A stretch of DNA of 64,000 nt from Candidatus Taenariivivens baikalensis (GCA_009691445.1 SICL01000005.1:2446-66445), one strand, 5' to 3'; shown: positions 10,069 through 56,767, numbered from the stretch's first letter. Made by a program: numbers and translations. The notes: generated by a model from the letters alone, not told the origin.

Positions 10069-10150
10069 GTCATTGCGAGCAAAGCGAAGCAATCTCGGGT
10101 TACGCGCAGGGATTGCCGTATCTCCGCCAGGGCGAGGGACTCGCAATGAC
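10069..10150. repeat. Family-1 palindromic intergenic repeat unit (GTCATTGCGAG...CTCGCAATGAC).
   Basis: Termini are inverted repeats of each other. Internal modules CGAAGCAATCTCGGGTT / GGGATTGCCG / CTCCGCC are shared with at least 8 other loci in the window. Confidence 0.8.
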
Positions 10151-10200
10151 CGAAAAGGGCTTAAAAAACCGCTTCTAATGACAATTAAGATTGGAACTCT

Positions 10201-10974
10201 ATGAAAATAAAAAATGATTTGGTAGCGCTGGATATTGAAACCACAGGCGTTTGGGTGGAAAAAGATAAAATTATTGAATTAGCACTGATTAAATACCACC
10301 CCAACGGCGAGAAAGAGACCTTCCATAGAAGGATTAATCCCGGGATGCTGATTCCTGAGGTGGTGACGAAATTAACGGGAATTTCAGATCAAGATGTGAA
10401 AGACGCACCTTACTTTAAAGAGGTGACGCGGGGCATCCTTGATTTTATTGGTGATGCGGATCTGGCCGGATTTAATATTGAGCGTTTTGATCTCCCTTTG
10501 CTCGAACGAGAGTTTGCGGAGGCCGGGATTCATTTTGAATGGAAAGAGCGGAGGATTTACGACGCACAAAAAGTTTATCATCTGAATGAAAAAAGAGATT
10601 TAGCCGCTGCTTATCAATTCTACTGTCAGAAGGAACTTATCGGTGCGCATTCAGCTTTGGCGGACAGTGAAGCGGTTTATGAGATCCTGAAAAAGCAGAT
10701 CGTGAAATACGGAGAGGGAAGTGATGAGCTTTCGGTGCTGGAAAAATTTGAGTATGTGAACCACACGGATTTTTGTGATTCAGAGAAACGGTTTTGCTGG
10801 TGGAACGGCAAGGTGTATCCCGCGTTTGGCAAATACCGCCGGCAGCTTCCTCTTGATGAAATTGCAAAACGGGACGCGGGCTATCTCAAATGGCTTTTGA
10901 AATCCGACTTTAAGGATGATGCGAAGGAATTACTTCAAGCTGCTTTGGACGGAGAACTCCCTGCTCGGAAATAG
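10201..10974 (+). CDS. DEDDh 3-prime-5-prime exonuclease (DnaQ / DNA pol III epsilon-like) with a C-terminal extension.
   Basis: Exo I VALDIETTG, Exo II GFNIERFDLPLL, Exo III HSALADSEAVYEIL. About 90 additional C-terminal residues of unknown function. Confidence 0.75.
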   Translation: MKIKNDLVALDIETTGVWVEKDKIIELALIKYHPNGEKETFHRRINPGMLIPEVVTKLTGISDQDVKDAPYFKEVTRGILDFIGDADLAGFNIERFDLPLLEREFAEAGIHFEWKERRIYDAQKVYHLNEKRDLAAAYQFYCQKELIGAHSALADSEAVYEILKKQIVKYGEGSDELSVLEKFEYVNHTDFCDSEKRFCWWNGKVYPAFGKYRRQLPLDEIAKRDAGYLKWLLKSDFKDDAKELLQAALDGELPARK

Positions 10975-11023
10975 CTGATAAAGCACTTGATCCGTACCCG
11001 AATAATTCAAGGAAAATATTACC

Positions 11024-11278
11024 ATGTCGGACATCACTAAACCTATGATTAAGAAAAAAGAATTCGGTGTGCAGCCGCTTGATGAATGGATGACGCGCTT
11101 TGCGCTTTCCAATCATGACTTGGTGGGGGCTTCTACAGAACAGCTCACTCATAAAATGGTGAGTAAAGGGAGAAAAGGAAGGCGCCTGACATTGAATGCC
11201 CGCCACAAAATCTTAGCGGCGCTTAAAGTGTTAAAGCCAGATCAGCCCGTTACTCTCAAAGAATTATTTAACTATTAA
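11024..11278 (+). CDS. Hypothetical small protein.
   Basis: 84-aa ORF with a plausible start and no recognisable motif. Confidence 0.3.
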   Translation: MSDITKPMIKKKEFGVQPLDEWMTRFALSNHDLVGASTEQLTHKMVSKGRKGRRLTLNARHKILAALKVLKPDQPVTLKELFNY

Positions 11279-11301
11279 CGTGAGTTTCTCAAATATTGAC
11301 C

Positions 11302-11422
11302 GTCATTGCGGGTCCCGCGCATTGGCGGAGACGCCCCAATCTCCCAGTGAATAACCCGAGATTGCTTCCCCCTCTATCAATGAGTGCGAATGAGGGATTG
11401 CTTCACCGCGGTTCGCAATGAC
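11302..11422. repeat. Family-1 palindromic repeat unit.
   Basis: GTCATTGCGG...GTTCGCAATGAC with internal GGCGGAGACGC / CCGAGATTGCTTC modules. Confidence 0.75.
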
Positions 11423-13395: not shown

Positions 13396-13677
13396 ATGGC
13401 AAAGGCAAAAGCGCGTCATATCCTCGTGAAGGATGAGAAAGCCTGTATTAATTTGAAGCAGCAGATCGAAACCGGTTCTGATTTTTCGGAACTTGCCAAG
13501 AAGCATTCGCTTTGTCCGTCCGGGCAAAAGGGCGGGGACTTAGGCGAATTCTTCCGCGGTCAAATGGTCAAAGAGTTTGACGACATTGTTTTCTCCCAGG
13601 AAGTAGGGAAGACGCACGGCCCGGTCAAAACGCAGTTTGGTTACCATTTGATTTTGATCGACAGCCGCAAAGATTAA
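13396..13677 (+). CDS. Parvulin-type peptidyl-prolyl cis-trans isomerase (PpiC-like).
   Basis: [14 protein letters not shown]...[34 protein letters not shown]...[23 protein letters not shown] lies 6 nt upstream of the ATG at 13396. The ORF-track start at 13330 is rejected. Confidence 0.75.
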
Positions 13678-13680
13678 ATG

Positions 13681-13803
13681 ACCAAGAAACAAGATACAAG
13701 AAACAAAGAATGACCAAGTGTTCAAGAGACAAGAAACAAACGTTTGGAGTTTGTTCTTTGCCTTTTGATCATTTGTTTGGACACTTGTTTCTTGTATCTT
13801 GGT
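13681..13803. repeat. Family-2 palindromic intergenic repeat (ACCAAGAAACAAG...CTTGTTTCTTGGT).
   Basis: Left half ACCAAGAAACAAGATACAAGAAACAAAG. Right half TTTGTTTGGACACTTGTTTCTTGTATCTTGGT. Three more copies at 44554, 49908 and 50979. Confidence 0.75.
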
Positions 13804-13813
13804 AATTTGATTT

Positions 13814-15481: not shown

Positions 15482-15555
15482 GTCATTGCGAGTCATTCGC
15501 TTGTCATTCTGAGCGAAGCGAAGAATCTCAGGATAAACTCCGCGAAGCAATCTCT
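15482..15555. repeat. Family-1 repeat, degenerate copy.
   Basis: GTCATTGCGAGTCATTCGCTTGTCATTCTGAGCGAAGCGAAGAATCTCAGGATAAACTCCGCGAAGCAATCTC. The CTCAGGATAAACTCCGCGA module recurs at 46950. Confidence 0.7.
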
Positions 15556-42172: not shown

Positions 42173-42365
42173 GTCATTGCGAGCGACCGTAGGGAGCTCC
42201 GCCGAAGGACGGATCAGTCCTCTGGCTGAGAAGCAATCTCGGGTCTATGCTCCGGGATTGCCGCGCCCGCCTGCCGGCGAGGCAGGTCTCCGCCAAGGCG
42301 CGGGACTCGTCCGCCGAAGGACGGATCCGTCCTCTGGCGGACAATGACAAACCCAACGCAATGAC
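42173..42365. repeat. Family-1 compound repeat (two units sharing a CCGCCGAAGGACGGATCCGTCCTCTGGCGG palindrome).
   Basis: GTCATTGCGAGCGACC...GAAGCAATCTCGGGT...GGGATTGCCGCGCCCGCCTGCCGGCGAGGCAGGTCTCCGCC...GGACAATGACAA...GCAATGAC. Confidence 0.8.
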
Positions 42366-43702: not shown

Positions 43703-43784
43703 GTCATTGCGAGTCCCGCACCCTGGCGGAGACGCGGCAATCGCTGGGTGTAACCCGAGATTGATTCGCTTTGCTCACAATGAC
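43703..43784. repeat. Family-1 repeat unit.
   Basis: GTCATTGCGAGTCCCGCACCCTGGCGGAGACGCGGCAATCGCTGGGTGTAACCCGAGATTGATTCGCTTTGCTCACAATGAC. Confidence 0.75.
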
Positions 43785-45267: not shown

Positions 45268-45517
45268 GTCATTGCGGACCTTTGCTGTCATTGAGGTCCT
45301 TTGGCTGTCATTGCGAGGAGCGATTTTTGCGACGAAGCAATCTCGGTTTGTGCACCGGGATTGCCGCGTCTCCGCCCAAGCGCGGGACTCGCAATGACAA
45401 AAAAAAACTACGCTATTACGAGCCCTTTCCCTTGGTGTCATTGCGAGCGGAGCGAAGCAATCTCGGGTTATGCTCCGGTTTGCCACGTCTCCGCCAAAGC
45501 GCGGGACTCGTAATGAC
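45268..45517. repeat. Family-1 repeat, tandem array of about 3 units.
   Basis: GTCATTGCGG..GTCATTGAGG..GTCATTGCGAGGAGCG...CTCGCAATGAC...GTCATTGCGAGCGGAGCGAAGCAATCTCGGGTTATGCTCCGGTTTGCCACGTCTCCGCC...CTCGTAATGAC. Confidence 0.8.
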
Positions 45518-45521
45518 GGAT

Positions 45522-46802
45522 TTAAGCCTTCTTAAACTGCTCCGCCTCCGTCGATCCCTTCATACTAAACGTCGATGATTGCCCGCCCGTGGCGATTTGA
45601 GTCACGGCATCAAAATAGCCGGTTCCCACAAATTCCTGATGCTTCACGGCTTCATAGCCCAGCTTTTCTGCGGCAAATTCCTCTTCCTGCAGTTCGGAAT
45701 AGGCGGCCATTCCTTTGGTTTTGTAATCCTTGGCCAGCATAAACATACTGTAATTGAGCACGTGAAATCCGGATAAAGTCACGAACTGGAATTTGTATCC
45801 CATCTTTCCCAGCTGTTCCTGAAACGTTTCGATGGATTTCTCGTCCAGATTCGATTTCCAGTTAAAGGACGGCGAGCAGTTATAGGCAAGAAGTTTTCCT
45901 GGGAATTTTTTATGGATGGCTTCCGCGAAAGTTTTGGCCTGTTGCAGATTGGGTTTGGAAGTTTCAAACCAGAGCAGATCCGCGTAAGGTGCGTACGCAA
46001 GTCCGCGGCTGATGGCTTGATCCAGTCCGGCTTTGACCTGATAAAATCCTTCATGCGTCCGGGTTCCATAGATAAAGGGCTGATCATAAGGATCCACGTC
46101 GCTGGTCAGAAGGGAAGCGCTGTCCGCATCCGTACGTGCGATCAACATTGTATCGACGCCGCAGACATCCGCGGCTAAACGCGCTGCAATTAACTTGGTG
46201 ATAAATTCCTGGGTCGGAACCAAAACTTTTCCTCCAAGATGCCCGCATTTTTTCACCGAGGCTAGCTGATCTTCAAAGTGAACGCCCGAGGCTCCTTCTT
46301 CGATCATCATCTTCATGATTTCAAACGCGTGAAGCGGTCCACCGAATCCGGCTTCGGCATCGGCCACAAGCGGCGCAAGCCAGTGAATGCTGTGGTCATC
46401 CTTGAGATGATGGATCTGATCTGTGCGCATCAGGGAATTATTGATCCGCTTGATCAGATAGGGGACGCTGTCGGACGGATAAAGACTTTGATCCGGATAC
46501 ATGCGCAGGGAATTATTCATGTCGGCCGCAACCTGCCAGCCGCTGACATAAATGGCTTTGAGTCCGGCCTTGACCTGCTGAATGGCTTGATTGCCCGTGA
46601 CCGCGCTTAGAACATGAACATAGGACTCATCATTCAGGAGCTGCCAGAGACGTTTGGCGCCGGCTTTGGCAATGGAGTATTCCCGGTGAATGGTGCCGCG
46701 AAGACGAAACACGTCCTCCGGTTTATAGGTACGCGTCACGCCTTTCCAGCGCGCCGAAGTTTTCCATTCCTGTCCAAGCTTTACGGTTTCGTTTAGATCC
46801 AT
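45522..46802 (-). CDS. aceA: Isocitrate lyase.
   Basis: Active-site KKCGHLGGK, plus [11 protein letters not shown] and ARTDA. 426 aa. Confidence 0.92.
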
Positions 46803-46827
46803 AAAATCTCCTTTTGAATTTTAGGCT

Positions 46828-47049
46828 GTCATTGCCCGCCAGAGGACGGATCCGTCCTTCGGCGGACGAGTCCCGCGCTTTGGCGGAGACGCGGCAATCT
46901 GACACGAAGTGTCATCCTGAACGAAGTGAAGGATCTCAGGATAAACTCCGCGACGGATCTCATTCCGAGATTCTTCACTTCGTTCAGAATGACAAAAAAC
47001 GTCAGATTGCTTCCTGCCTACCGGCAGGCAGGCGCTCCGCTCGCAATGA
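46828..47049. repeat. Family-1 compound repeat between aceB and aceA.
   Basis: GTCATTGCCCGCCAGAGGACGGATCCGTCCTTCGGCGG...GGCGGAGACGCGGCAATCT...CTCAGGATAAACTCCGCGA...GGCAGGCAGGCGCTCCGCTCGCAATGAC. Confidence 0.8.
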
Positions 47050-47058
47050 CAATGATTG

Positions 47059-48636
47059 TTAATCCAGATAATCGTAAGCAATGAGGGTTAAAAATTCTGG
47101 AAATTCTTTTTTCGTACTCATCGTTTCAAAAAGCTGGGAAGCGCGGGGGAACTGGCCCTTGTCAAAAACTTCTGGCCCGACAAGTGTCCGGATTTTTTCC
47201 AGCTCTTCCTGAATTAATTTCTTCAGAAGTTCCGGCGTAATTTCAAGCCATTCCCGGGTGACCGATTTGTGATGAATCCATTGCCAGACCTGGGAGCGTG
47301 AAATTTCAGCGGTCGCCGCGTCTTCCATCAGATTGTAAATGGGAACGCATCCCACGCCGCGCAGCCACGCTTCCAAATAAAGAATGCCGATATTCACATT
47401 CAATCGCAACCCTTTGTCCGTGACCGAACCTTCCGGCATCCGCAGGAGATCCTTGGCCGTGATTCGCACATCTTCCCGCAGGACATTCAGCTGATTTGCG
47501 GCAGGCATATGCTCGTCAAAGATTTCTTTAGCGATCGGAATCAAACCGGGATGAGCAACCCAGGTTCCGTCGTGACCGGCTTTCACTTCGCGGAGTTTGT
47601 CCGCCCCGACTTTTTCCATAGCCGCTTTGTTGGCGGCCGGATCAGATTTGATGGGGATCTGCGCGGCCATGCCTCCCATCGCGTGAATTCCGCGGCGATG
47701 GCAGGTCTGGATCAAAAGCTCCACATAAGCTTTGAGAAACGCATTGTCCATCGTGACCTCGGCGCGGTCGGGAAGGACAAAATTTTTATGATTCCGGAAT
47801 TTTTTGATGAAGCTGAAAATATAATCCCAGCGTCCGCAATTGAGTCCGGCCGAGTGATCGCGTAGTTCGTAAAGGATCTCATCCATCTCAAAGGCCGCAA
47901 GAATTGTTTCAATCAGGACCGTGGCGCGAATCGTTCCCGTTGGAATCCCAAGTTCAGTTTGAGAAAAATTAAACACATCATTCCAGAGCCGGGCCTCAAG
48001 ATGGCTTTCCATTTTCGGGAGATAAAAGTAAGGACCTGTACCTTGACTGATCAGTGTTTTGGCATTGTGGAAAAAGAAAAGCCCAAAATCAAAAAGCGAA
48101 GCGGAGATAGGATGTCCGTCGACAAGCAGATGTTTCTCCGATAAATGCCAGCCCCGGGGCCGCACCATCAAAGTAGCGATTTTTGGATTCAGGGCGTAGT
48201 GCTTTCCTTCCGGCGAATTAAAATCAATTTTCCGGTGAACGGCATTGCGTAAATTAATCTGCCCCTCCAGATTATTTTTCCAGGTCGGGGCATTCGAGTC
48301 TTCAAAGTCAGCCATAAAGACACAGGCACCGGAATTGAGGGCATTGACGATCATTTTTCGGTCCACCGGCCCGGTGATTTCAATGCGCCGGTCTTGAAGG
48401 TCATCAGGAATGGGCGCCACTTTCCAGCTGTCCTTACGGATCTTTTGTGTTTCCGGAAGAAAATCTGGAAGCTTTCCCTGATCAAGCTCCGCTTGACGAG
48501 TCTCGCGGTTCTTGAGAAGTGTCTGCCGCGTGGGTTCGAATTGCCGGGCAAGTTTGAGGAGAAAGGCAAGCGATGAGGGCGTCAGGATTTCCTGATGTTG
48601 AAAATTTAAGGAGTCGCGGACTTCAATATCTGTCAT
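47059..48636 (-). CDS. aceB: Malate synthase A.
   Basis: 525 aa. ...[11 protein letters not shown]... and [12 protein letters not shown] are catalytic-region motifs of malate synthase A. Confidence 0.92.
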
Positions 48637-48665
48637 TTTGAAACCTTTCTTATGTATAGGGTTGA

Positions 48666-48688
48666 CCTTATTTACGATCTAAATAAGG
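48666..48688. promoter_or_regulatory. Perfect 9-5-9 palindrome (CCTTATTTA-CGATC-TAAATAAGG) in the divergent aceB / liv promoter region. Candidate operator.
   Basis: It sits 30 nt upstream of the aceB start codon and 25 nt upstream of the livJ-like ATG, next to a TTGACC hexamer at 48662. Confidence 0.35.
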
Positions 48689-48713
48689 GTTTTATTGATT
48701 TTTATTTCATATC

Positions 48714-49895
48714 ATGAAAAAATACGCCCGCCAGCCAACCAACGAAGGAGCTTTCGTGAAACGGATTCATTTTGTCCTGATCGGTTCAGTCCTCGCGCTT
48801 TCATTCACCGGATGCACTCAGAATACTTCCCAGTCCAACGTCATTAAAATCGGATGCTCGGCTCCTTTAACCGGAGACCAGGCCCAGATCGGGATTGATA
48901 CCTGCCGCGGCGCGCAACTTGCCGTGGACCAGGCCAATCAAAAGGGAGAAGTCCTTCCAGGAAAAACTCTCGAGCTTTTGGAGCTGGATGATCAGCACAA
49001 TCCTGCCCAGGCGGTGAACGTCGCCAAAAAATACGTGTCTGATCCGGATGTGATTGCGGTAGTCGGCCATTTCAACTCCAGCTGCACCAAGCCGGCCTCA
49101 GCTATCTATAATGAAGGCGGGATGGTTCAGATCACTCCGGCCTCGACGAACCCCGAACTTTCCAAGCAAGGGTTCAAGACGTTTTTTCGAGCCGCTGCTA
49201 CGGATGATGTTCAAGGACCTGCAGCCGCCAAGTATGTTGCCTCCAAGCTCGGCGTGAAGCGTCTTTTTATCATTGATGATAAGACAACCTACGGAAAAGG
49301 TCTGGCGGATGAGTTTGAAAAGGAAGCGCGAAAACAATCGATCGAGATTCTTGGCCATGAGGGCATCACGCAAGGAGATAAAGATTTCACTCCGCTTCTG
49401 ACGAAGATTAAGCCGATGGATCCCGAACTGATTTATTTTGGCGGGATTTATCCGGAAGGTTCGCTTTTGATCCGGCAGGCGCGTGGGCTGAACATCACTT
49501 CCAAGTTTATGGGAGGGGACGGACTTGCGACGCCCATTTTTATTGAACTCGCTTCCAAAGAAATTGCGGAAGGCACTTATGCGAGCATGGTTGGAGGGGA
49601 TATGAGAAAGATTCCGAGTGCGGCGCAATTTATCAAGGATTACGAAGCCAAGTATGGAAGCATGGGGCAATGGTCGGCTTATGGTTTTGATTCCGCGAAC
49701 GTGGTGATTGAAGCGATCCGCAAGGCCGGTCAAAATAATCGCGAAGCGGTGCTTAAGGCCATGCGCGAAATACCCGTATTTAAGGGAGTGACCGGGGAAA
49801 TCATCTTTGATGAAAAAGGTGATAACAAGAATCAGTTTATTGGTGTCTTTAAAGTTGAAAACGGCGAGCTTACCTACGTGGGACCCGCAGCATAA
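48714..49895 (+). CDS. livJ: Branched-chain amino-acid ABC transporter substrate-binding protein (LivJ/LivK family, lipoprotein).
   Basis: Type-I periplasmic-binding fold motifs (IKIGCSAPLTGDQAQIG, VVGHFNSS, ITPASTNPELS). Lipobox LSFTGC. Confidence 0.8.
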   Translation: MKKYARQPTNEGAFVKRIHFVLIGSVLALSFTGCTQNTSQSNVIKIGCSAPLTGDQAQIGIDTCRGAQLAVDQANQKGEVLPGKTLELLELDDQHNPAQAVNVAKKYVSDPDVIAVVGHFNSSCTKPASAIYNEGGMVQITPASTNPELSKQGFKTFFRAAATDDVQGPAAAKYVASKLGVKRLFIIDDKTTYGKGLADEFEKEARKQSIEILGHEGITQGDKDFTPLLTKIKPMDPELIYFGGIYPEGSLLIRQARGLNITSKFMGGDGLATPIFIELASKEIAEGTYASMVGGDMRKIPSAAQFIKDYEAKYGSMGQWSAYGFDSANVVIEAIRKAGQNNREAVLKAMREIPVFKGVTGEIIFDEKGDNKNQFIGVFKVENGELTYVGPAA

Positions 49896-49907
49896 GACAT
49901 TGCAGCG

Positions 49908-50034
49908 AAATAACCAAGAAACAAGATACAATCACCAAGTAATGACCAAGTGTCCAAGAAACAAGAAACAAATGTTTAGGCCGTGTTCTTTGCTTTTTAG
50001 TCATTTGTTTGGCAACTTGTACCTTGTCTCTTGG
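49908..50034. repeat. Family-2 palindromic repeat.
   Basis: AAATAACCAAGAAACAAGATACAATCACCAAG ... CTTGTACCTTGTCTCTTGG. Confidence 0.75.
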
Positions 50035-50060
50035 AATTTTGAAGAGCATTCAGGTAATCA

Positions 50061-50978
50061 ATGACGCCTCTTGATGTTTTTTTGCAGCAGATCGTCAACG
50101 GTCTTACGATTGGAATGATCTACGCGCTGATTGCCCTGGGCTACACGATTGTTTACGGCATTGCGCAGCTGATCAATTTTGCCCACGGTGAAATTTTTAT
50201 GGTGGGCGCCTACTTTGGACTTCTGGCGTATACGCTTATTCAATTGCTTCCTGTCGGGTCCGTTGGATTTTTGTTTATCCTTCCCCTGATTTTTCTTTTT
50301 GTGATGACGCTCACCGCGCTGCTTGGAGTGATCGTCGAGCGTTTTGCCTACCGGCCTTTGCGGGAGGCGCCGCGCCTTGCTCCGCTGATTACGGCCATCG
50401 GTGTTTCGTTTCTGCTTCAAAATGCCGTGATGATTCTTTTTGGCCCCGCGGATAAACGTTTCCCCAGTCTTATCGAAATCCACAAACTTTCTTTTCATCA
50501 TGTGACGATCACCAATCTTCAAATCATGATTACGGGTTTTTCTCTGATCCTGATGCTCGTGCTGCACACCTTCATTAAATACACGCGAATGGGAAAGGCG
50601 ATGCGGGCCCTGGCCGATGACCGTGAGGCGGCCTGTCTGATGGGAATTAATGTGAATCAAATTATCTCCATTGCTTTCCTGATCGGCTCAGCGCTGGCCG
50701 GAGCCGGAGGCATCATGTTCGGGATGTACTACAACACGATTAATTTTCATGACGGTTATCTCGCGGGATTGAAAGCTTTTTCCGCGGCCGTGCTGGGAGG
50801 AATCGGGAATATTCCTGGAGCGATGGTTGGCGGAGTGTTGCTCGGTATTCTCGAAGGAATGGGTGCCGGTTACATTTCTTCGGAGTGGAAAAACGTATTC
50901 GCTTTTTTCATCTTGATCCTTATTTTGCTTTTTCGTCCGCACGGGCTTTTGGGATCACGAGTGGTTAAAAAAGTTTGA
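50061..50978 (+). CDS. livH: Branched-chain amino-acid ABC transporter permease LivH.
   Basis: N-terminal LQQIVNGLTIGMIYALIALGYTIVYG and about 8 TMs typical of the LivH family. Confidence 0.85.
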   Translation: MTPLDVFLQQIVNGLTIGMIYALIALGYTIVYGIAQLINFAHGEIFMVGAYFGLLAYTLIQLLPVGSVGFLFILPLIFLFVMTLTALLGVIVERFAYRPLREAPRLAPLITAIGVSFLLQNAVMILFGPADKRFPSLIEIHKLSFHHVTITNLQIMITGFSLILMLVLHTFIKYTRMGKAMRALADDREAACLMGINVNQIISIAFLIGSALAGAGGIMFGMYYNTINFHDGYLAGLKAFSAAVLGGIGNIPGAMVGGVLLGILEGMGAGYISSEWKNVFAFFILILILLFRPHGLLGSRVVKKV

Positions 50979-51084
50979 AATAACCAAGAAACAAGATCTA
51001 AGATACAAATAATAACCAAGTGGCAATAACCAAAAAGAATTTGTTTTTTGTCTCTTGGTCATTATTTGGACACTTGTGTCTTGG
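50979..51084. repeat. Family-2 palindromic repeat.
   Basis: AATAACCAAGAAACAAGATCTAAGATACAAATAATAACCAAG ... CTTGGTCATTATTTGGACACTTGTGTCTTGG. Confidence 0.75.
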
Positions 51085-51100
51085 AACTTTAAAAAATAGT

Positions 51101-52093
51101 ATGAAAAAATTACTAACATTTTCACGATTTAAGAATCTGGCAATCCTGCTAGTTTTTTTTATTTTCCCGCTGATTGACCGAAGTCCTTATCACATTGATG
51201 TGATGGTTTCGGCGGGTGTGTTTATAATCCTCGCCCTGGGGTTGAACGTGATTGTGGGATATGCGGGCATTCTTAATCTTGGATACGCGGCTCTCTTTGC
51301 CTGCGGGGCTTATTTATATGCGATTTCAAACATTCACTTTCATATTCCGTTCTGGACCGGACTTTTCATCAGCGGTTTTGGAACCGCTCTTTTTGGAATG
51401 CTGCTCGCCTTTCCAGCGCTTCGGCTTTCCGGAGATTATCTGGCGATCGTAACTTTAGGAGCTGGAGAGATTGTCCGCATTATCCTCAACAACGTGGATC
51501 AAGTCACCGGCGGTCCGAATGGACTCTTGGGAATCGATCATCCAACCTTTTTCGGATTACGTTTTGGCGTTAAATCCGGGCCTTATTACTATTTAATTTT
51601 TGTCATGGTCATCCTGCTCGTTTTTTTTCTGAAGCGTCTTGAATCTTCACGACTCGGACGCGCCTGGACGGCCATGCGTGAAGATGAACTGGCTGCTTCC
51701 AGCATGGGCGTGAATCTGATGTGGGCAAAACTCACGGCGTTCGGCATCGGCGGATTCATTGCAGGAATCGCCGGCTGTGTGTTTGCCTCAAAACAGGGAA
51801 GTATTTCACCGGATAGTTTTGATTTCGTGGTCTCCGTGATGGTGCTTGCGATGGTGGTGCTGGGAGGTTTAGGTACGATTCGCGGCGCAATCACCGGCGC
51901 CCTCATCTTAAGTCTTCTTCCGGAATTTTTGCGCGGGTTTGAAATGTACCGGATGCTCTTTTTTGGTCTTGCCATGATTCTGATGATGCTTTTTCGTCCG
52001 CAGGGGATTTTCGGAGAAGTCCGTTACAAGACCCGGTTCTCTTCGGGAAAAAAGGGACGGTTCTCATTGACGCCAGAAGCAAGGAAACAATAA
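51101..52093 (+). CDS. livM: Branched-chain amino-acid ABC transporter permease LivM.
   Basis: Polytopic LivM-type permease. ATG at 51101 is preferred over the track start at 51020, which lies inside the repeat. The last 14 codons are encoded by the family-3 hairpin arm. Confidence 0.85.
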   Translation: MKKLLTFSRFKNLAILLVFFIFPLIDRSPYHIDVMVSAGVFIILALGLNVIVGYAGILNLGYAALFACGAYLYAISNIHFHIPFWTGLFISGFGTALFGMLLAFPALRLSGDYLAIVTLGAGEIVRIILNNVDQVTGGPNGLLGIDHPTFFGLRFGVKSGPYYYLIFVMVILLVFFLKRLESSRLGRAWTAMREDELAASSMGVNLMWAKLTAFGIGGFIAGIAGCVFASKQGSISPDSFDFVVSVMVLAMVVLGGLGTIRGAITGALILSLLPEFLRGFEMYRMLFFGLAMILMMLFRPQGIFGEVRYKTRFSSGKKGRFSLTPEARKQ

Positions 52094-52149
52094 TTTGAAT
52101 TATTTAAATCATTTGATCATCGCAACAAAATTTGCTGAGAACCGTCCCT
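52054..52149. repeat. Family-3 hairpin repeat (GGGACGGTTCTCATTGA ... TGAGAACCGTCCCTG), about 96 nt.
   Basis: About 90% identical to the copy at 52941-53036. The left arm overlaps the livM 3-prime end. Confidence 0.8.
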
Positions 52150-52156
52150 GGCGCGT

Positions 52157-52957
52157 ATGAAAATCGAACAGCTTTCTGAACTTGAAATTTTAAGCGTGGA
52201 CCGCCTGAGCAAACATTTCGGCGGCGTTTCTGCTCTCGAAGACATCAGCTTCGCGGTTCCCCAGGGAAAAATCGTGAGCGTGATCGGCCCCAATGGCGCT
52301 GGCAAGACCACGCTCTTTAATTGTATTACCGGACTTTATACACCGGACGAAGGATCGCTTTTTTTTGGCGATGCCCAGATGCTCCTGAACGGACTTCCGT
52401 GTTATGAAATCGCGTCCAAGGGAATCTCTCGCACCTTTCAGACCATCCGCTTATTCAAACAAATGACCGCGCTTGAAAATGTGATGGTGGGAGCTCATTC
52501 CAAAACACGCGGCGGAGTTTTGAGCGCTCTTTTCCGGCCGCGCTGGGTTTCGGTCGGTGAAAAAAAACTGGAACGGCAGGCACAGCGTCTGCTTTCTTTT
52601 TTCGGACTCGCCTCCAAATCGCAGGAACTTGCGCAGAATCTTTCTTACGGACATCAGCGTAAACTGGAAATTGCGCGGGCCCTGGCCTCCGAACCCAAGC
52701 TGCTGCTTTTGGATGAGCCGGCCGCGGGAATGAATCCTCGGGAAAAGGACGAGCTGCTGGGTTATATTCGTGCGATCCGTGAGCGGGGAATCACGATTAT
52801 TTTAATCGAGCATGATATGAAAGTCGTGATGCCGATCTCGGATTATATTGTGGTGCTGGATTACGGAAAAAAAATTGCGGAAGGCATTCCTAAAGAAATT
52901 CAGAATAATCCGCGCGTCATTGAAGCGTACCTCGGCAAAGGGGACGGTTCTCATTGA
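52157..52957 (+). CDS. livG: Branched-chain amino-acid ABC transporter ATP-binding protein LivG.
   Basis: Walker A GPNGAGKTT, signature LSYGHQRKLEIARAL, Walker B LLLDEPAAGMNP. The stop codon lies inside the hairpin arm (...GKGDGSH*). Confidence 0.9.
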   Translation: MKIEQLSELEILSVDRLSKHFGGVSALEDISFAVPQGKIVSVIGPNGAGKTTLFNCITGLYTPDEGSLFFGDAQMLLNGLPCYEIASKGISRTFQTIRLFKQMTALENVMVGAHSKTRGGVLSALFRPRWVSVGEKKLERQAQRLLSFFGLASKSQELAQNLSYGHQRKLEIARALASEPKLLLLDEPAAGMNPREKDELLGYIRAIRERGITIILIEHDMKVVMPISDYIVVLDYGKKIAEGIPKEIQNNPRVIEAYLGKGDGSH

Positions 52958-53036
52958 GGCTGGCGGCAAGGAAATATTAATTTGAATCATTTAAATTATT
53001 TGATCATCGCAACAAAATTCTATGAGAACCGTCCCT
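52941..53036. repeat. Family-3 hairpin repeat, about 96 nt.
   Basis: GGGACGGTTCTCATTGAGGCTGGCGGCAAGGAAATATTAATTTGAATCATTTAAATTATTTGATCATCGCAACAAAATTCTATGAGAACCGTCCCTG. Confidence 0.8.
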
Positions 53037-53047
53037 GATGAGGCTGT

Positions 53048-53755
53048 ATGCTTGAAGTTGCAAATTTACATTCGGGTTACGGAAAGATTGAAATCCTCAA
53101 GGGGCTCAAGATCCGGGTTCCTGAGGGAAAGATTGTTTCTTTAATTGGATCTAACGGCGCGGGTAAGACCACCTTGCTGATGACGATTTCGGGGATTGTT
53201 CCTGCCTGGAAAGGCTCCATTAAATTTTCAGGGAAGGCCATTGAGACGATGCCTGCGGATCAGATTGTCCGTCAAGGTGTGGTTCAAGTGCCCGAAGGCC
53301 GGAGGATTTTCTCCCGTCTTACCGTGGAAGAAAATCTGGATCTTGGCGCTTACACAAGGCCCCGTGATCCTGAAATCAAAAGAGACAAAGAGGAGATGTT
53401 TGCCCTTTTCCCGATTTTGTACGCGCGTACAAAATCTTTGGCCGGGAACCTGAGCGGCGGCGAGCAGCAGATGCTGGCTATGGCCCGTGCGCTGATGGCG
53501 CGTCCCAAGCTTCTATTGTTGGATGAACCCAGCCTTGGACTTGCTCCCAAGATGATTGAAACGATCTTTCAGCTGATCCGTAAAGTAAATCAGAAGGGAA
53601 TCACGATCCTTCTGGTGGAACAGAATGCCTGGAAGGCGCTTGGAATTGCGGACTACGGCTACGTGATCGAGAGCGGGAAAAATCAGATTGAAGGCACGGG
53701 GCAGGAACTTCTTTCAAATCCCCAGATCAAACACTCCTATCTTGGGGAATCGTAA
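53048..53755 (+). CDS. livF: Branched-chain amino-acid ABC transporter ATP-binding protein LivF.
   Basis: Walker A GSNGAGKTT, signature LSGGEQQMLAMARAL, Walker B LLLDEPSLGLAP. Confidence 0.9.
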   Translation: MLEVANLHSGYGKIEILKGLKIRVPEGKIVSLIGSNGAGKTTLLMTISGIVPAWKGSIKFSGKAIETMPADQIVRQGVVQVPEGRRIFSRLTVEENLDLGAYTRPRDPEIKRDKEEMFALFPILYARTKSLAGNLSGGEQQMLAMARALMARPKLLLLDEPSLGLAPKMIETIFQLIRKVNQKGITILLVEQNAWKALGIADYGYVIESGKNQIEGTGQELLSNPQIKHSYLGES

Positions 53756-53783
53756 CTCGAAGCGGATTCATAAGTGCTTTTCG

Positions 53784-53930
53784 GTCATTGCGAGCTGCAG
53801 CGAAGCAATCTGACGATTTAGGTCATTGCGAGGAGAGAAGCGACGAAGCAATCTCGGGTTGTGGCTTGAGATTGCCACGCCCGCCTGCCGGCGAGGCAGG
53901 TCTCCGCCAGAGCGCGGGACTCGCAATGAC
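53784..53930. repeat. Family-1 compound repeat.
   Basis: GTCATTGCGAGCTGCAGCGAAGCAATCTGACGATTTAGGTCATTGCGAGGAGAGAAGCGACGAAGCAATCTCGGGTT...CCGCCTGCCGGCGAGGCAGGTCTCCGCC...CTCGCAATGAC. Confidence 0.8.
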
Positions 53931-54085
53931 CGAAAAGTACTTCTGTAAAAAGCAGTCATTCCTCTTTTTTTTTAAGGAACTTCAGGAAATTCCCTAACCT
54001 AACGATACTCATCGTAATAATGACTTTCCAGTTTGACGATAACATACATAAAAACCCCCGCTTTTATAGAGACTAGAGGAAAATT

Positions 54086-56575
54086 ATGCATCTGCTTTCG
54101 GGTTTGTTTGTAGGGAAAGAAAGAAAAAAATTTTTAAATCAATTCCTCATTTTCGGTGCATTTTTTGTCAGTTCAGGTTCTGTTTGGGCCAATGAAGGGG
54201 CTCTGAAGATTCCTGATCTGCATGAAGGACGCTTCAATTTTTTTGGGGGACTCACCGGCTATCAGATTCTTCTTTACGGCGCCGCGGTTATCCTTGGAAC
54301 GGTGGGTCTGTCGCTTTATCAATTTATAAAGATCAAGGCGCTTCCCGCTCACCGATCCATGCTCGATGTCGCTGAAACGATCTTTCAAACCTGCAAAACC
54401 TATTTGAAGCAACAGGTGAAATTTCTTTCCATCCTGTTCGCCATTATTGCCTGTGCGATGGCCTATTATTTTGTGGGGCTCCAGCACGAATCCCTGACGA
54501 CTTTGGGTCTTGTGCTCTTTTTTTCCGTCGTCGGTATGGCGGGATCAACTTTGGTTGCCTTTTACGGTATCCGCATCAACACTTATGCGAATGCCCGGAC
54601 TGCTTTTGCATCTCTGCGCGGTGTCCCTTGGGATGTCGTCAATATTCCGCTTCGTGCGGGGATGTCGGTTGGTCTTTTCCTTATTTCTATTGAACTTGTG
54701 ATGATGGTAGGGATTTTGCTTTTTGTCCCGCGAGAAATCGTCGGCTACTGCTTCCTCGGTTTTGCGATCGGTGAATCGCTCGCGGCGAGTGCTCTTCGTA
54801 TCGCCGGAGGAATCTTTACGAAGATCGCCGATATTGGTTCCGATCTCATGAAAATTGTCTTCCAGGTCAAAGAAGATGATCCTCGCAATCCGGGCGTCAT
54901 TGCTGACTGCGCGGGGGATAATGCCGGCGACTCAGTTGGACCTACCGCTGACGGTTTTGAGACTTATGGCGTCACGGGTGTTGCGCTGATTTCGTTTATC
55001 ACACTGGCAGTGAAAGAGCCGGCGCTTCAAGCAAAACTGATCGTCTGGATTTTTGCGATGCGATTCCTGATGGATTTCATGTCGGGATGTTCCTACTTTA
55101 TCAACTCGGTCATCTCTGAACGCAAGTACAAACATTTGAAAGAGTTTGATTTTGAAGAACCGCTTACGCGCCTGATTCAAATTGCAACCGCGCTGTGCAT
55201 TACGACTTCTTTCGGCATGTCTTATTTGCTTGTCGGTGACCTTCCTGACGCATCACTCTGGTGGAAGTTAGCTTCGATCATTGCGTGCGGGACTCTCGCC
55301 GCTTTCCTCATTCCCGAGTTCACCAAAATTTTCACCTCGTCGCATTCGATGCATGTCCATGAAATTGTGACGGCTTCACGCGAGGGCGGGGCTTCGCTGA
55401 CAATCCTTTCGGGTCTTGTCGCAGGTTACTTCTCAGCATTCTGGAAAGGAATCCTGATCGCGGGTCTTATGTTCGCGGCGTATTTGCTCTCGGGACTGGG
55501 ACTTCAGGAAATTATGCCTCATGCCTCCGTTTTCGCTTTTGGACTTGTGGCTTACGGCTTTCTTTGTATGGGACCTGTGAATATTGCGGTGGATTCTTAC
55601 GGACCTGTTACAGACAATGCTCAATCGATTTTTGAATTGGCTCAGACCGAGTCGATTCCCGGAATCGAGAAAGAAATTGAAAAAGATTTTGGATTCAAGC
55701 CCGACTTCAAAAAGGGAAAGCATTATCTTGAAGCCAATGACTCAGCGGGTAATACCTTCAAGGCCACGGCCAAACCCGTATTGATCGGTACGGCTGTTGC
55801 TGGAGCAACGACGATGATTTTTTCAATCATCCTTCTCTTGCAGGGACACCTTCAGGCCGGGGCTGTTGCCGCTGCGGCAGGTGGAATCGTTCCCGGAAAT
55901 ATCGGAGAACTTCTGCTTTATGAAAAACTTTCGCTCACGGCTGCTCCGGTCTTACTGGGACTCCTTTGCGGTGGGGCAGTCATTTATTGGTTCTGCGGTG
56001 CTTCGATTCAAGCTGTGACCACGGGGGCCTATTCTGCCGTCGAATACATTAAGAAAAATATGAATCTCGCGAAGAAGGAGGCACAGCGTGAGGACTCCAT
56101 CATGGTCGTCAAGATCTGCACAGAATACGCGCAGAAGGGCATGTGGAATATCTTCCTGGGTCTTCTTGCTTTCACGCTTGCCTTTGCGCTCTTCGATCCT
56201 TATTTCTTCATTGCTTACCTGATGGCCATTGCCGTCTTCGGACTTTTTCAAGCGATGTATATGGCGAATGCAGGCGGAGCTTGGGATAATGCGAAAAAAC
56301 TCGTTGAAGTCGATCTTGGAGAAAGAAATACTCCTCTTCATGCCGCGACCGTTGTTGGCGATACAGTCGGTGATCCTTTTAAAGATACGACCTCAGTGTC
56401 TCTCAATCCGATTATCAAATTCTCCACACTCTTCGGCCTTCTCGCCGTTGAGATTGCGATCAAGATGCCTCCTTCAACCACGCGGGTCATCGGTGCTGTA
56501 CTCTTCGTAATCGCTTTATTTTTCGTCTGGAAGTCTTTTTACGGAATGCGAATTCCCATAAAGCCCAAATCTTAA
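54086..56575 (+). CDS. hppA: Membrane-bound proton- or sodium-translocating pyrophosphatase.
   Basis: GVIADCAGDNAGDSVGPTADGFETYG and DNAGGAWDNAKK / VGDTVGDPFKDT motifs are diagnostic for H+-PPase. 829 aa with about 16 TMs. The true start may be an internal Met. Confidence 0.9.
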   Translation: MHLLSGLFVGKERKKFLNQFLIFGAFFVSSGSVWANEGALKIPDLHEGRFNFFGGLTGYQILLYGAAVILGTVGLSLYQFIKIKALPAHRSMLDVAETIFQTCKTYLKQQVKFLSILFAIIACAMAYYFVGLQHESLTTLGLVLFFSVVGMAGSTLVAFYGIRINTYANARTAFASLRGVPWDVVNIPLRAGMSVGLFLISIELVMMVGILLFVPREIVGYCFLGFAIGESLAASALRIAGGIFTKIADIGSDLMKIVFQVKEDDPRNPGVIADCAGDNAGDSVGPTADGFETYGVTGVALISFITLAVKEPALQAKLIVWIFAMRFLMDFMSGCSYFINSVISERKYKHLKEFDFEEPLTRLIQIATALCITTSFGMSYLLVGDLPDASLWWKLASIIACGTLAAFLIPEFTKIFTSSHSMHVHEIVTASREGGASLTILSGLVAGYFSAFWKGILIAGLMFAAYLLSGLGLQEIMPHASVFAFGLVAYGFLCMGPVNIAVDSYGPVTDNAQSIFELAQTESIPGIEKEIEKDFGFKPDFKKGKHYLEANDSAGNTFKATAKPVLIGTAVAGATTMIFSIILLLQGHLQAGAVAAAAGGIVPGNIGELLLYEKLSLTAAPVLLGLLCGGAVIYWFCGASIQAVTTGAYSAVEYIKKNMNLAKKEAQREDSIMVVKICTEYAQKGMWNIFLGLLAFTLAFALFDPYFFIAYLMAIAVFGLFQAMYMANAGGAWDNAKKLVEVDLGERNTPLHAATVVGDTVGDPFKDTTSVSLNPIIKFSTLFGLLAVEIAIKMPPSTTRVIGAVLFVIALFFVWKSFYGMRIPIKPKS

Positions 56576-56608
56576 GAGATTTTGTAGCGCGCTTAAGAGT
56601 GATTGTCT

Positions 56609-56767
56609 GTCATTAAGAGTCCCGCACTTTGGCCAAGACGCGTGAGGTAGTCACTGCAGGAGGCCCGCAGGACGACGCGGCAATATCAAGCGCACCCCCC
56701 GAGTTTGCTACGCCCTGTGGAGCTCGTAATGACGGGTGTGGGATTGCTTTGCTTCGCTCGCAATGAC
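56609..56767. repeat. Family-1 repeat, divergent copy.
   Basis: GTCATTAAGAGTCCCGCACTTTGGCCAAGACGCG...GCTCGTAATGACGGG...GCTTTGCTTCGCTCGCAATGAC. Confidence 0.7.

What the first reader, a model, noticed from the sequence alone, without database searches (positions are those of the whole stretch)
10069..56767. Family 1: mosaic palindromic intergenic repeats bounded by GTCATTGCGAG ... CTCGCAATGAC (at least 9 loci).
Loci: 10069-10150, 11302-11422, 15482-15555, 42173-42365, 43703-43784, 45268-45517, 46828-47049, 53784-53930 and 56609-56767. The units are 80-250 nt, strictly intergenic, and built from reshuffled modules. Modules include CGAAGCAATCTCGGGTT, GGGATTGCCGCG, CCGCCTGCCGGCGAGGCAGGTCTCCGCC, GCGCGGGACTCGCAATGAC and the perfect palindrome GCCAGAGGACGGATCCGTCCTTCGGC. 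Termini are inverted repeats of each other. This looks like a REP/BIME- or MITE-like element family. There is no obvious target duplication and no cognate transposase in the window.
Basis: seen in the sequence. Interest (0 to 1): 0.55.

Follow-up and report, generated by a model that had tools for sequence, protein, structure and literature searches.

The report
Orphan palindromic intergenic repeats (REP-like)
The window, from an uncultured Omnitrophota bacterium, carries a family of small hairpin-forming "junk" repeats between its genes; they belong to a REP-like class seen in several bacterial phyla and in phages, and nobody knows what copies them.

Summary
GTCATTGCGAG (≤1 mismatch) occurs 18 times against 1.05 expected. 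All nine loci exist and lie wholly between genes.

They are not freely reshuffled modules. Each is one ~82-nt scaffold made of two inverted short palindromes: a "left" GTCATTGCGAG-[hairpin]-CGAAGCAATC and a diverged "right" copy. Extra hairpins or whole elements are inserted at three fixed spots.

The same element, with near-identical ends, is present in:
- more than 120 metagenome contigs and more than 120 IMG/VR contigs;
- replicons of Novosphingobium, Methylosinus, Methylocystis, Methylobacterium, Halomonas and the cyanobacterium Aulosira.

Features shown here:
- covarying variable hairpins;
- T and A flanking the two ends;
- no target-site duplication;
- no neighbouring transposase;
- an in-frame insertion in one phage portal gene that is absent from its orthologue.

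The closest known kind is the CGTC/TGTC-tagged REP superfamily (Di Nocera 2013; it includes Neisseria dRS3/NIME and Rickettsia RPE), which also has no known transposase. I read it as non-autonomous REP/BIME-type DNA copied in trans, probably through single-stranded hairpins. That mechanism is inferred, not shown.

Verdict: a new member or variant of a known kind, of moderate interest.

The parts
10069..10150 (+). Complete 82-nt doublet. Left REP is GTCATTGCGAG-CAAAG-CGAAGCAATC, followed by a loop and the inverted right REP ending CTCGCAATGAC.
   Evidence: CM R1 scores 63.0 bits on + against 42.3 on -. RNA fold -35.9 kcal/mol, z -3.6.
10028..10068 (+). 40-nt flank module (GTTTCATAAG..CACAACTC..TTATTT) next to the left-REP head. 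It is shared with 43785-43825.
   Evidence: Self-BLAST; sequences.
11302..11422 (-). Doublet with extra DNA of about 39 nt between the left-REP head and CGAAGCAATC.
   Evidence: Alignment A1. R1 scores 33.3 bits on - against 26.3 on +.
15482..15555 (+). Single left REP. A variant REP (GTCATTCTGAGCGAAGCGAAGAATC, starting at 15503) is nested in its variable loop.
42173..42365 (+). Doublet carrying three inserts: imperfect palindrome P at 42201-42226 in the left-REP loop, a second P at 42313-42338 inside the right head, and hairpin D at 42267-42294.
   Evidence: R1 gives 30.0 bits on the core 42208-42288.
43703..43784 (-). Complete 82-nt doublet. The flank module 43785-43825 follows it.
   Evidence: R1 scores 55.9 bits on - against 35.2 on +.
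45268..45306 (+). Two truncated heads (GTCATTGCGGACC.., GTCATTGAGGTCC..).
45307..45398 (+). Complete doublet of 92 nt; its left REP is of the GAG-GA-[hairpin]-GA-CGAA type.
   Evidence: R1 gives 76.9 bits. RNA fold -49.2 kcal/mol, z -5.3.
45437..45517 (+). Complete doublet of 81 nt.
   Evidence: R1 gives 54.6 bits; fold.
46828..47050 (-). Doublet lying between malate synthase and isocitrate lyase. A second doublet of the variant GTCATYCTGAA type (46911-46993) is nested in its central loop, and palindrome P (46838-46863) sits inside its right head.
   Evidence: The nested element gives 24.1 bits. DNA fold -71.2 kcal/mol, z -10. Relative L122 has the two genes 14 nt apart.
53784..53821 (+). Single left REP (GTCATTGCGAG-CTGCAG-CGAAGCAATC).
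53822..53930 (+). Doublet with hairpin D (53881-53908) inserted before the right REP's own hairpin.
   Evidence: R1 gives 62.6 bits. RNA fold z -5.4. The Logan contig L121 breaks inside it.
56609..56733 (-). Degenerate doublet (heads GTCATTACGAG / GTCATTAAGAG) with a large insert in the right half.
   Evidence: R1 gives 31.8 bits on 56650-56733.
56734..56767 (-). Single left REP (GTCATTGCGAG-CGAAG-CAAAGCAATCC) abutting the doublet.

Best explanation
These are non-autonomous REP/BIME-type palindromic repeats of the CGTC/TGTC-tagged kind.

The basic unit is a 25-45-nt hairpin with these parts, in order:
- a tag, (T/C)GTC;
- a 5-bp outer stem, ATTGC/GCAAT;
- a purine internal loop, GA on one side and GAA on the other;
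- a closing G-C pair;
- an interchangeable inner hairpin, most often the GCGNAGC mini-hairpin.

In this genome the usual form is a pair. A 'left' unit and a diverged, inverted 'right' unit (GYG in place of GAA) share a 12-bp terminal stem and a central stem. As a single strand the pair folds into a four-armed structure.

Shown here: the repeats recur, are structured and are extragenic; they differ in presence between orthologous sites; they leave no target duplication; they nest inside each other's loops; and no transposase lies beside them.

Inferred: copies are made in trans from single-stranded hairpin DNA by an enzyme encoded elsewhere. By precedent this would be a HUH/Y1 (RAYT- or IS200-like) nuclease, but it has not been identified. 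Copies then survive only where they do no harm, just beyond stop codons, where their transcripts may also buffer mRNA 3' ends.
For: - Recurrence and scaffold.
- Same heterodimer elsewhere: more than 120 metagenome contigs. The half-unit is in more than 120 IMG/VR contigs.
- Named hosts in three phyla: Omnitrophota, Alpha- and Gammaproteobacteria, and Cyanobacteria.
- Structure: 88.6% of cells pair, against 27-38% when partners are slid. There are 65 double-sided changes against 20.4±3.6 in shuffles, 0 of 500 reaching the observed value.
- Variable hairpins form stems far above shuffles: 3.0 vs 1.46±0.14, and 4.07 vs 1.66±0.18.
- The commonest inner loops, CGNAG, give GCGNAGC.
- No target-site duplication in 50 of 53 copies. 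T at -1 in 44 of 53 and A at +1 in 46 of 55.
- Presence/absence: a phage portal gene carries an in-frame 57-nt REP pair that its 71%-identical orthologue lacks.
- Presence/absence in relatives: the ICL-malate synthase spacer is 256 nt here and 14 nt in a relative whose ICL is 79% identical. That relative has no copy in 17 kb.
- Nested copies.
- No transposase: window, 150 element-adjacent ORFs, REP-flanked ORFs, and 150 ORFs of the REP-dense IMG/VR (mostly phage) contigs.
- Published parallel: CGTC REPs carry the same tag, AT-first stems and inverted dimers, and lack a transposase (PMC3733652).
Against: - No mobilising enzyme was found, so the single-stranded-DNA/HUH step rests only on analogy and on the DNA-type mini-hairpin.
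- E. coli RayT found no homologue in 1.9 Mb of repeat-bearing DNA. The rest of the source genome could not be read.
- G·U/G·T pairs sit on one strand only. That would also fit an RNA role.
- The short canonical units are not predicted stable by nearest-neighbour DNA parameters.
- The orthologue comparisons are between fairly distant genomes. They show presence versus absence, not a recent jump.
Confidence: 0.6

Rival explanations
1. They are classical MITEs: internally deleted copies of a DDE-transposase insertion sequence, moved by cut-and-paste through their 11-12-bp terminal inverted repeats.
For: The terminal inverted repeats are perfect. Elements nest inside one another. Sizes are 80-250 nt.
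Against: - There is no target-site duplication in 50 of 53 independent copies.
- No head-to-tail pair 300-3,500 nt apart encloses a transposase. Only two such pairs exist; both span known phage genes or non-coding DNA.
- No transposase family is enriched next to 150 elements.
- The half-unit also occurs alone and in tandem arrays, which a TIR-defined MITE does not explain.
Confidence: 0.08
2. They are primarily functional RNA or DNA signals kept by selection, and their spread is secondary. Candidate roles are mRNA 3'-end stabilisers, attenuators, insulators between genes, or protein-binding sites like E. coli BIMEs.
For: - They lie 5-69 nt from the stop codon of the adjacent upstream gene (5-53 nt at eight of the nine loci).
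- The folds are strong, with z from -3 to -10.
- G·U pairs fall on one strand only, and the model scores 7-24 bits higher on that strand.
- The REP literature proposes such roles (PMC3733652).
Against: - The structured strand is sense to the flanking genes at about 5 loci and antisense at about 4 in the window. In unidirectional metagenome contexts the split is 4 sense to 8 antisense.
- There is no U-tract or terminator-like site on any element.
- No Rfam match appears even at E≤1.
- Outward -35-like ends are not followed by -10 boxes: 3 of 107 ends.
- A relative lacks the element at the same operon junction.
- One copy sits in frame inside a phage gene.
Confidence: 0.17
3. They are target or crossover sites for a site-specific recombinase. 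The model is Neisseria dRS3/NIME, which the filamentous prophage Nf1 integrase uses; IS110/IS1111 elements likewise insert into REPs. On this view the mosaic clusters are scars of recombination.
For: - dRS3 is classed as CGTC-1.
- dRS3 is an Nf1 integration target inside mosaic arrays (PMC3898611).
- Inserts recur at exactly the same position in the right head, CTCG|CAATGAC, at 42313 and 46838.
- In the window the doublets alternate in orientation and bracket four gene blocks.
Against: - No recombinase, integrase or IS110 domain appears in the window or next to 150 elements.
- In multi-copy metagenome contigs, successive copies mostly share one orientation, so the alternation is probably chance (2/70 for four of each orientation).
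- This idea explains how the sites are used, not how they multiplied.
Confidence: 0.1
4. They are an assembly or chimera artefact of the metagenome-assembled genome.
For: Short-read contigs break at the repeat; the Logan contig starts inside 53822-53930.
Against: An independent assembly is 100% identical across locus 56609-56767. The same element is present in finished replicons of cultured bacteria.
Confidence: 0.01

Closest known systems
CGTC/TGTC-tagged REP superfamily (Di Nocera, De Gregorio & Rocco 2013, BMC Genomics 14:522; PMC3733652)
   Same: - An unpaired tag at one end: TGTC here, CGTC in Novosphingobium. The paper states that CGTC is often changed to TGTC.
- The stem starts with A-T then T-A.
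- A 3-nt tail follows the stem (CCA in the proteobacterial copies).
- The units occur mostly as inverted dimers, often heterodimers.
- They are mostly intergenic, with occasional in-frame intragenic copies.
- The family is spread over several phyla and has no dedicated transposase.
   Different: - The published families have continuous 8-9-bp stems and 4-5-nt loops. This one has a 5-bp outer stem, a GA/GAA internal loop and a swappable inner hairpin.
- The tail in the window is CTC, not CCA.
- Omnitrophota, Cyanobacteria (for CGTC types) and phage genomes are not in the published host list.
- I could not see the paper's Figure 2. I therefore cannot exclude that this exact sequence is one of its listed variants; no matching string or peptide is in its text or supplements.
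E. coli/Pseudomonas REP-BIME-REPIN elements with their RAYT transposase
   Same: - They are short imperfect palindromes in high copy between genes.
- Inverted doublets fold into long hairpins.
- Clusters are mosaic.
- There is no target-site duplication.
   Different: - Those carry a GTAG tag.
- They are lineage-specific and co-inherited with a single RAYT gene that they flank.
- Here the ends are nearly identical across phyla, and no RAYT was found.
Neisseria dRS3 repeats and intergenic mosaic elements (NIME)
   Same: - The frame is the same, GTCATT...AATC.
- They build mosaic intergenic arrays together with other small repeats.
- There are hundreds of copies per genome (PMC3898611).
   Different: dRS3 is a simple 20-bp unit (ATTCCC-N8-GGGAAT) with a known user, the Nf1 prophage integrase. 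No such phage or integrase is seen here.
Rickettsia palindromic elements (RPE-4, RPE-6)
   Same: They are classed as CGTC REPs and can sit in frame inside genes. The copy in the phage portal gene of L036 does the same.
   Different: RPEs are restricted to Rickettsia and differ in sequence. In this window no copy is intragenic.

Membership tests
REP/BIME (generic definition) | Short imperfect palindromes, repeated many times, extragenic | tested here: met
   18 heads in 64 kb against 1.05 expected. There is zero overlap with genes in an 85%-coding window.
REP/BIME (generic definition) | Units arranged in inverted pairs and mosaic clusters | tested here: met
   Nine left/right doublets plus single units and nested copies.
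GTAG REP / REPIN-RAYT system | GTAG tetranucleotide at the 5' end of the unit | tested here: not met
   The ends are (T/C)GTCATTGCGAG.
GTAG REP / REPIN-RAYT system | A cognate Y1 (RAYT) transposase gene flanked by the repeats | tested here: inconclusive
   None was found in the window, among 150 adjacent ORFs or among REP-flanked ORFs. E. coli RayT gave no hit in 1.9 Mb. The rest of the source genome could not be read, and a single seed is weak.
CGTC-tagged REP superfamily | Unpaired CGTC, TGTC or CCTC motif at one end | tested here: met
   T precedes GTC in 44 of 53 metagenome copies and in 7 of 9 window copies. C precedes it in Novosphingobium.
CGTC-tagged REP superfamily | Stem beginning with complementary A-T residues at positions 1 and 2 | tested here: met
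   The ATTGC...GCAAT outer stem is invariant in 45 of 45 aligned copies.
CGTC-tagged REP superfamily | Continuous 8-9-bp stem with a 4-5-nt loop | tested here: not met
   The outer stem is 5 bp, followed by a GA/GAA internal loop and a variable inner hairpin whose insert between GAG and CGAAGC is 3-26 nt.
CGTC-tagged REP superfamily | Three-nucleotide tail, mostly CCA | tested here: inconclusive
   The tail is CCA in the Novosphingobium copies and CTC in the window and most sediment copies.
CGTC-tagged REP superfamily | Predominantly inverted dimers; no associated transposase | tested here: met
   35 of 40 adjacent head-tail pairs are 150 nt or less apart. No transposase was found.
MITE (DDE transposase-dependent) | Target-site duplication flanking the terminal inverted repeats | tested here: not met
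   50 of 53 copies have none, and the rest are no more than expected from shuffled partners.
MITE (DDE transposase-dependent) | A full-length parent IS with the same ends | tested here: inconclusive
   None in the roughly 1.1 Mb of IMG/VR loci checked for head-tail pairs, and no transposase family recurs beside elements in the metagenome loci; whole genomes were not searched.
Intrinsic terminator | GC-rich hairpin followed directly by a T/U run | tested here: not met
   None of the 14 terminator-like sites in 41800-57200 falls on an element.
Any curated RNA family (Rfam 15) | Covariance-model match | tested here: not met
   No hit on any element at gathering score or at E≤1.

The most novel reading that the evidence does not exclude
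The GTCATTGCGAG/GAAGCAATC hairpin is a single, still-active mobile element class. It crosses phylum boundaries (Omnitrophota, Proteobacteria, Cyanobacteria), colonises tailed-phage genomes and even coding sequence, and swaps its inner hairpin like a cassette. It would be copied either by an unrecognised enzyme family or by a universal host replication or repair activity acting on DNA mini-hairpins, rather than by a RAYT. Phages would be its vehicle between hosts.
Probability: 0.2. Interest if true: 0.7.

Novelty: new member of a known kind. Interest (0 to 1): 0.4.

Why it matters
REP-type repeats fill a large share of intergenic DNA in many bacteria. For the CGTC-tagged class, the enzyme that makes new copies has been an open question since 2013.

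This window adds three things:
- a candidate-phylum host (Omnitrophota) in which the family takes up about 15% of intergenic DNA;
- a precise structural definition of the unit, and a covariance model that finds it;
- evidence that near-identical copies sit in unrelated phyla and inside phage genomes.

Together these make a phyletic-profile search for the mobilising gene feasible.

There is also a practical side. These repeats break short-read assemblies and generate spurious ORFs. An 86-aa gene was called over 46828-47050, and a start codon was called inside a terminal repeat at 56763. Masking the repeats would improve MAG annotation.

Tried and rejected
1. The single genome-contig scan was wasted. 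I used the GC-rich right-half pattern CTCCGCCNNNGYGCGGGACTCG. All 92 stretches were chance matches, mostly in high-GC genomes such as Streptomyces, and none carried GTCATTGCGAG. As a result no genome-wide census or organism list came from that collection.

2. The literature has no paper containing the element's strings.

3. Relatives found through the pyrophosphatase (88% identity) are not syntenic around that gene, so only the ICL-malate synthase junction could serve as an empty site.

4. Two loci where heads lie about 600 nt apart (L059, L062) looked like a flanked small gene. They contain no ORF, only a conserved promoter-rich non-coding stretch.

5. Outward-facing promoter idea. The ends read ATGACA, 5 of 6 matches to TTGACA. 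However, -10-like hexamers at 16-18 nt occur at only 3 of 107 ends, no more than at other spacings.

6. Flank pairing (anti-SD on the left, SD on the right). The left flanks are pyrimidine-rich and the right flanks G-rich, but contiguous complementarity is only 2.15 against 1.96±0.14 in shuffled partners.

7. K-turn, sarcin-ricin and hammerhead readings of the GAG/CGAA loop were considered by inspection and dropped. The consensus positions do not fit, and Rfam gives nothing.

8. Transposase hunts all came back negative.

9. Curated phage genomes (INPHARED) gave no hit with a window copy. With the consensus they gave only half-unit hits, in nine uncultured 'Bacteriophage sp.' records.

Full report

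Yes. GTCATTGCGAG with at most one mismatch occurs 18 times on the two strands of the window. Dinucleotide-preserving shuffles gave a mean of 1.05 and never more than 5.

None of the 1,331 nt overlaps a called gene, although about 85% of the window is coding. The family therefore fills roughly 15% of the intergenic DNA.

It is not an assembly artefact. A Logan assembly of run SRR8561390 (L121) is 100% identical over 6,137 nt, including locus 56609-56767. That contig starts inside element 53822-53930, as expected if a repeat breaks the assembly graph.

Small corrections:
- One locus ends at 47050, not 47049.
- The 26-nt "perfect palindrome" differs from its reverse complement at four positions.

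**2. Where the window comes from**

The H+-pyrophosphatase gene (54086-56575) is 100% identical to a protein that NCBI names from a "Candidatus Omnitrophica bacterium" MAG. Its best relatives, at 85-89% identity, are almost all Omnitrophota.

The window is ordinary chromosome. It encodes a Pif1-type helicase, an RNase T-like exonuclease, MsrA, a P-type ATPase, FadB, thiolase, isocitrate lyase, malate synthase, a branched-chain ABC transporter, phosphatidylserine decarboxylase, several toxin-antitoxin pairs, and a 2,679-aa ORF with no Pfam match. No ORF has a transposase, integrase or HUH domain.

**3. Anatomy**

When all nine loci are aligned in one orientation they share a single ~82-nt scaffold:

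GTCATTGCGAG-[X1]-CGAAGCAATCTCGG-[loop]-GGATTGCCGCG-[X2]-CTCGCAATGAC

This is a pair of inverted short palindromes:
- The left unit is GTCATTGCGAG-X-CGAAGCAATC.
- The right unit, read on its own strand, is GTCATTGCGAG-X-CGYGGCAATC. It is the same unit with GYG in place of GAA.

The "mosaic" look comes from insertions at three fixed places.
- In the left unit's X position: loci 11302, 15482, 42173 and 46828.
- In the central loop: a complete second doublet of a variant type, GTCATYCTGAA...TTCAGRATGAC, lies at 46911-46993.
- Inside the right head between CTCG and CAATGAC: the same 33-nt imperfect palindrome sits at 42313 and 46838.

Hairpin D (CCTGCCGGCGAGGCAGG) sits before X2 in two loci. Loci 15482 and 53784, and the outer part of 56609-56767, are single left units.

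As one strand, DNA or RNA, each doublet is predicted to fold into four parts: an 11-12-bp terminal stem, a central stem (GCAATCTCGG/CCGGGATTGC) and two local hairpins. Fold z-scores run from -3 to -5, and reach -10 for the nested cluster.

**4. The family is not specific to this genome**

- A pattern specific to the window's left/right heterodimer hit more than 120 metagenome contigs, also at the limit.
- BLAST against finished plasmids and chromids found full doublets in Novosphingobium resinovorum (at least 40 places in one replicon), N. aromaticivorans, Methylosinus trichosporium, Halomonas sp. and the cyanobacterium Aulosira laxa. Methylobacterium oryzae and Methylocystis rosea gave half-element matches only.

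Named hosts therefore span Omnitrophota, Alpha- and Gammaproteobacteria and Cyanobacteria, with the 11-nt head and 9-nt tail essentially unchanged.

The distribution is also patchy. Two Omnitrophota relatives (L122, L123; 40 kb in all) have no copy by string or by covariance model.

**5. Evidence for a selected structure**

In 177 half-units from IMG/VR, the segment between GAG and CGAAGC is most often CGNAG (53 of 177). Together with its neighbours this makes GCGNAGC. Otherwise the segment is a longer hairpin of quite different sequence.

From my own knowledge, d(GCGNAGC) is the classic unusually stable DNA mini-hairpin with a GNA loop. That point is recalled, not tested here.

A second form, GAG-GA-[hairpin]-GA-CGAA, adds a tandem G·A step.

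In 55 unique metagenome doublets the X1 and X2 segments pair from their ends inward far more than shuffles do: 3.0 vs 1.46±0.14, and 4.07 vs 1.66±0.18.

I then took a 45-sequence alignment and a four-helix structure that I specified:
- 88.6% of cells form standard pairs, against 27-38% when partners are slid by 1-3 columns.
- 65 cells carry changes on both sides, against 20.4±3.6 in shuffles (0 of 500 reached the observed value).
- All 6 pairs of X2 and 4 of the 5 pairs of X1 covary.

The terminal and central stems hardly vary. Part of that is because my search pattern fixed them, so they say little either way.

G·U (or G·T) pairs occur in the central stem on one strand only. Matching this, the covariance model scores the "forward" strand 7-24 bits higher and its predicted fold is 2-6 kcal/mol better in 6 of 6 cases.

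**6. Evidence bearing on mobility**

(a) Ends and flanks. Across 53 independent copies the base before the head is T in 44. Across 55, the base after the tail is A in 46. In Novosphingobium the flanks are C and G instead. The terminal stem is therefore really 12 bp, and the tag reads TGTC or CGTC.

(b) No target-site duplication. 50 of 53 copies have none, which is what shuffled partners also give.

(c) Presence versus absence.
- Two phage portal proteins are 71% identical over their whole length and differ by a single 19-residue gap. In L036 that position holds two inverted half-units in frame (…ARNDSPFVSLRGAEHRSNL…).
- In the window, malate synthase and isocitrate lyase are 256 nt apart, and the spacer holds the 223-nt cluster. 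In relative L122, whose ICL is 79% identical, the two genes are 14 nt apart.

(d) Elements nest in each other's loops.

(e) No gene for a mobilising enzyme is linked.
- There is nothing in the window.
- The 150 ORFs nearest to elements in metagenome contigs hit 136 Pfam families. The commonest are pilin-type N_methyl (11 members) and type II secretion proteins, and no transposase is among the 25 families listed.
- Ten ORFs flanked by repeats are ordinary genes.
- 150 ORFs from the most repeat-dense IMG/VR contigs are capsid, adaptor, portal, terminase and tail proteins, so most of those contigs are real tailed phages.
- E. coli RayT found nothing in 10,520 ORF segments from 1.9 Mb.

**7. What it most likely is and does**

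The anatomy is that of REP/BIME elements. The closest described group is the CGTC-tagged REP superfamily of Di Nocera et al. (PMC3733652). According to that paper:
[quoted passage not shown] - Head-to-head dimers, often heterodimers, are the usual arrangement.
- Some copies are intragenic, as with Rickettsia RPE.
- The repeats are spread over several phyla.
- Explicitly, there is no associated transposase.

The paper counts Neisseria dRS3, the core of the Neisseria intergenic mosaic elements, as CGTC-1. dRS3 is the integration target of prophage Nf1 (PMC3898611).

The present family meets the tag, A-T-start, dimer and orphan criteria. It fails the "continuous 8-9-bp stem, 4-5-nt loop" description. 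[quoted passage not shown] I could not see its Figure 2, and neither its text nor its supplements contain this sequence or its peptides. I therefore file the family as a further member or variant of that superfamily, not as one of its four listed families.

My committed mechanism is copying in trans from a single-stranded hairpin form, without target duplication, by an enzyme encoded elsewhere. Purifying selection then leaves copies only in harmless spots just outside genes.

The grounds for the single-stranded step are indirect:
- the DNA-type mini-hairpin;
- the strand-specific wobble pairs;
- the lack of duplication;
- the RAYT/IS200 precedent.

This step is inference. A secondary role for the transcribed hairpins at mRNA 3' ends is plausible but untested.

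**8. Rivals**

- A DDE-type MITE is unlikely, because there is no duplication and no parent IS.
- A primarily RNA-level function is weakened on several counts. The structured strand has no consistent orientation relative to transcription: about 5 sense to 4 antisense in the window, and 4 to 8 in unidirectional metagenome contexts. No element carries a terminator-like site, and Rfam gives no match.
- A recombination-target role like that of dRS3 cannot be excluded, but nothing here points to a recombinase.
- In the window the doublets alternate in orientation (F,R,F,R,FF,R,F,R) and so bracket four gene blocks. For four of each orientation the chance of this is 2/70. Multi-copy metagenome contigs mostly show runs of one orientation, so I treat the alternation as chance.

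**9. Novelty and score**

The kind is known. What is new:
- the Omnitrophota host;
- the explicit hairpin-in-hairpin and left/right heterodimer architecture, with covariation support;
- the cross-phylum near-identity of the ends;
- the colonisation of tailed-phage genomes, including a coding sequence.

The open question, what copies CGTC-type REPs, remains open but becomes more tractable. Interest is 0.4.

**10. Limits**

There is therefore no genome-wide census and no broad organism list.
- The remaining 30 kb of the source contig and the rest of the MAG could not be read.
- Hosts of the metagenome and IMG/VR contigs are unnamed.
- Empty-site comparisons are between fairly distant relatives.

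Noticed in passing
window 13675-13810, 44554-44661, 49907-50042, 50977-51083: A second, unrelated family of AT-rich long palindromic intergenic repeats (AACCAAGAAACAAGATACAAG...CTTGTATCTTGGT). There are four copies, all between genes.
   Followed up: partly
window 52050-52150 and 52937-53037; partial copies at 26260-26295 and 41814-41849: A third family of ~100-nt elements with terminal inverted repeats GGGACGGTTCTCATTGA...TGAGAACCGTCCC. Two copies flank the ABC ATPase gene 52157-52957; two further places carry single ends.
   Followed up: no
window 35011-35121: A long near-perfect hairpin directly after the stop of the 2,679-aa ORF. It matches only miRNA-precursor models below threshold, which marks it as a generic long hairpin.
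   Followed up: no
window 26982-35021: A giant 2,679-aa ORF with no Pfam domain at E≤0.001.
   Followed up: no
window 777-1245 (-): A sub-threshold match to the cspA thermoregulator RNA: 60.2 bits against a gathering score of 78, E 1e-12.
   Followed up: no
window 56757-56767 and 46821-47081: The repeats mislead gene callers. The recorded start of the phosphatidylserine decarboxylase gene (window 56763) is the ATG inside the terminal repeat CTCGCAATGAC. In addition, an 86-aa 'gene' was called across the 46828-47050 cluster in the ENA record.
   Followed up: partly
L036 3846-5330 (-) versus L059 3249-4625 (-): A phage portal gene carries two inverted half-units in frame (19 extra residues) that its 71%-identical orthologue lacks. 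L036 has 13 repeat heads in 6.6 kb.
   Followed up: yes
L059 5300-5900 and L062 10230-10810: A conserved ~580-nt non-coding stretch between two repeat units in two related phage contigs. It has two strong sigma-70-like promoters (TTGACA...TATAAT) and no ORF, so it may be a phage non-coding RNA gene or control region.
   Followed up: no
L046 2695-2818: Four half-units in a perfect 33-nt tandem array in one IMG/VR contig. This is a different arrangement from the inverted pairs seen elsewhere.
   Followed up: no
window 10069-56767 (order of the doublets): The doublets strictly alternate in orientation along the window. They bracket four blocks: RNase T plus an 84-aa ORF, cytochrome c plus a 160-aa ORF, isocitrate lyase, and the pyrophosphatase. 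The chance is 2/70 for four of each orientation. The pattern is not seen in multi-copy metagenome contigs.
   Followed up: partly
window 36648-38179, 39119-39768, 60136-60920: Three toxin-antitoxin pairs: AbiEi/AbiEii, an HI1420-type antidote protein (39451-39768) with an unannotated upstream partner (39119-39454), and MazE-like/PIN.
   Followed up: no
metagenome loci L218-L337: Genes next to the elements are enriched for pilin-type N-terminal methylation motifs (11 of 150) and type II secretion E/F proteins. This suggests that most of these sediment contigs come from Omnitrophota/PVC-like hosts.
   Followed up: no
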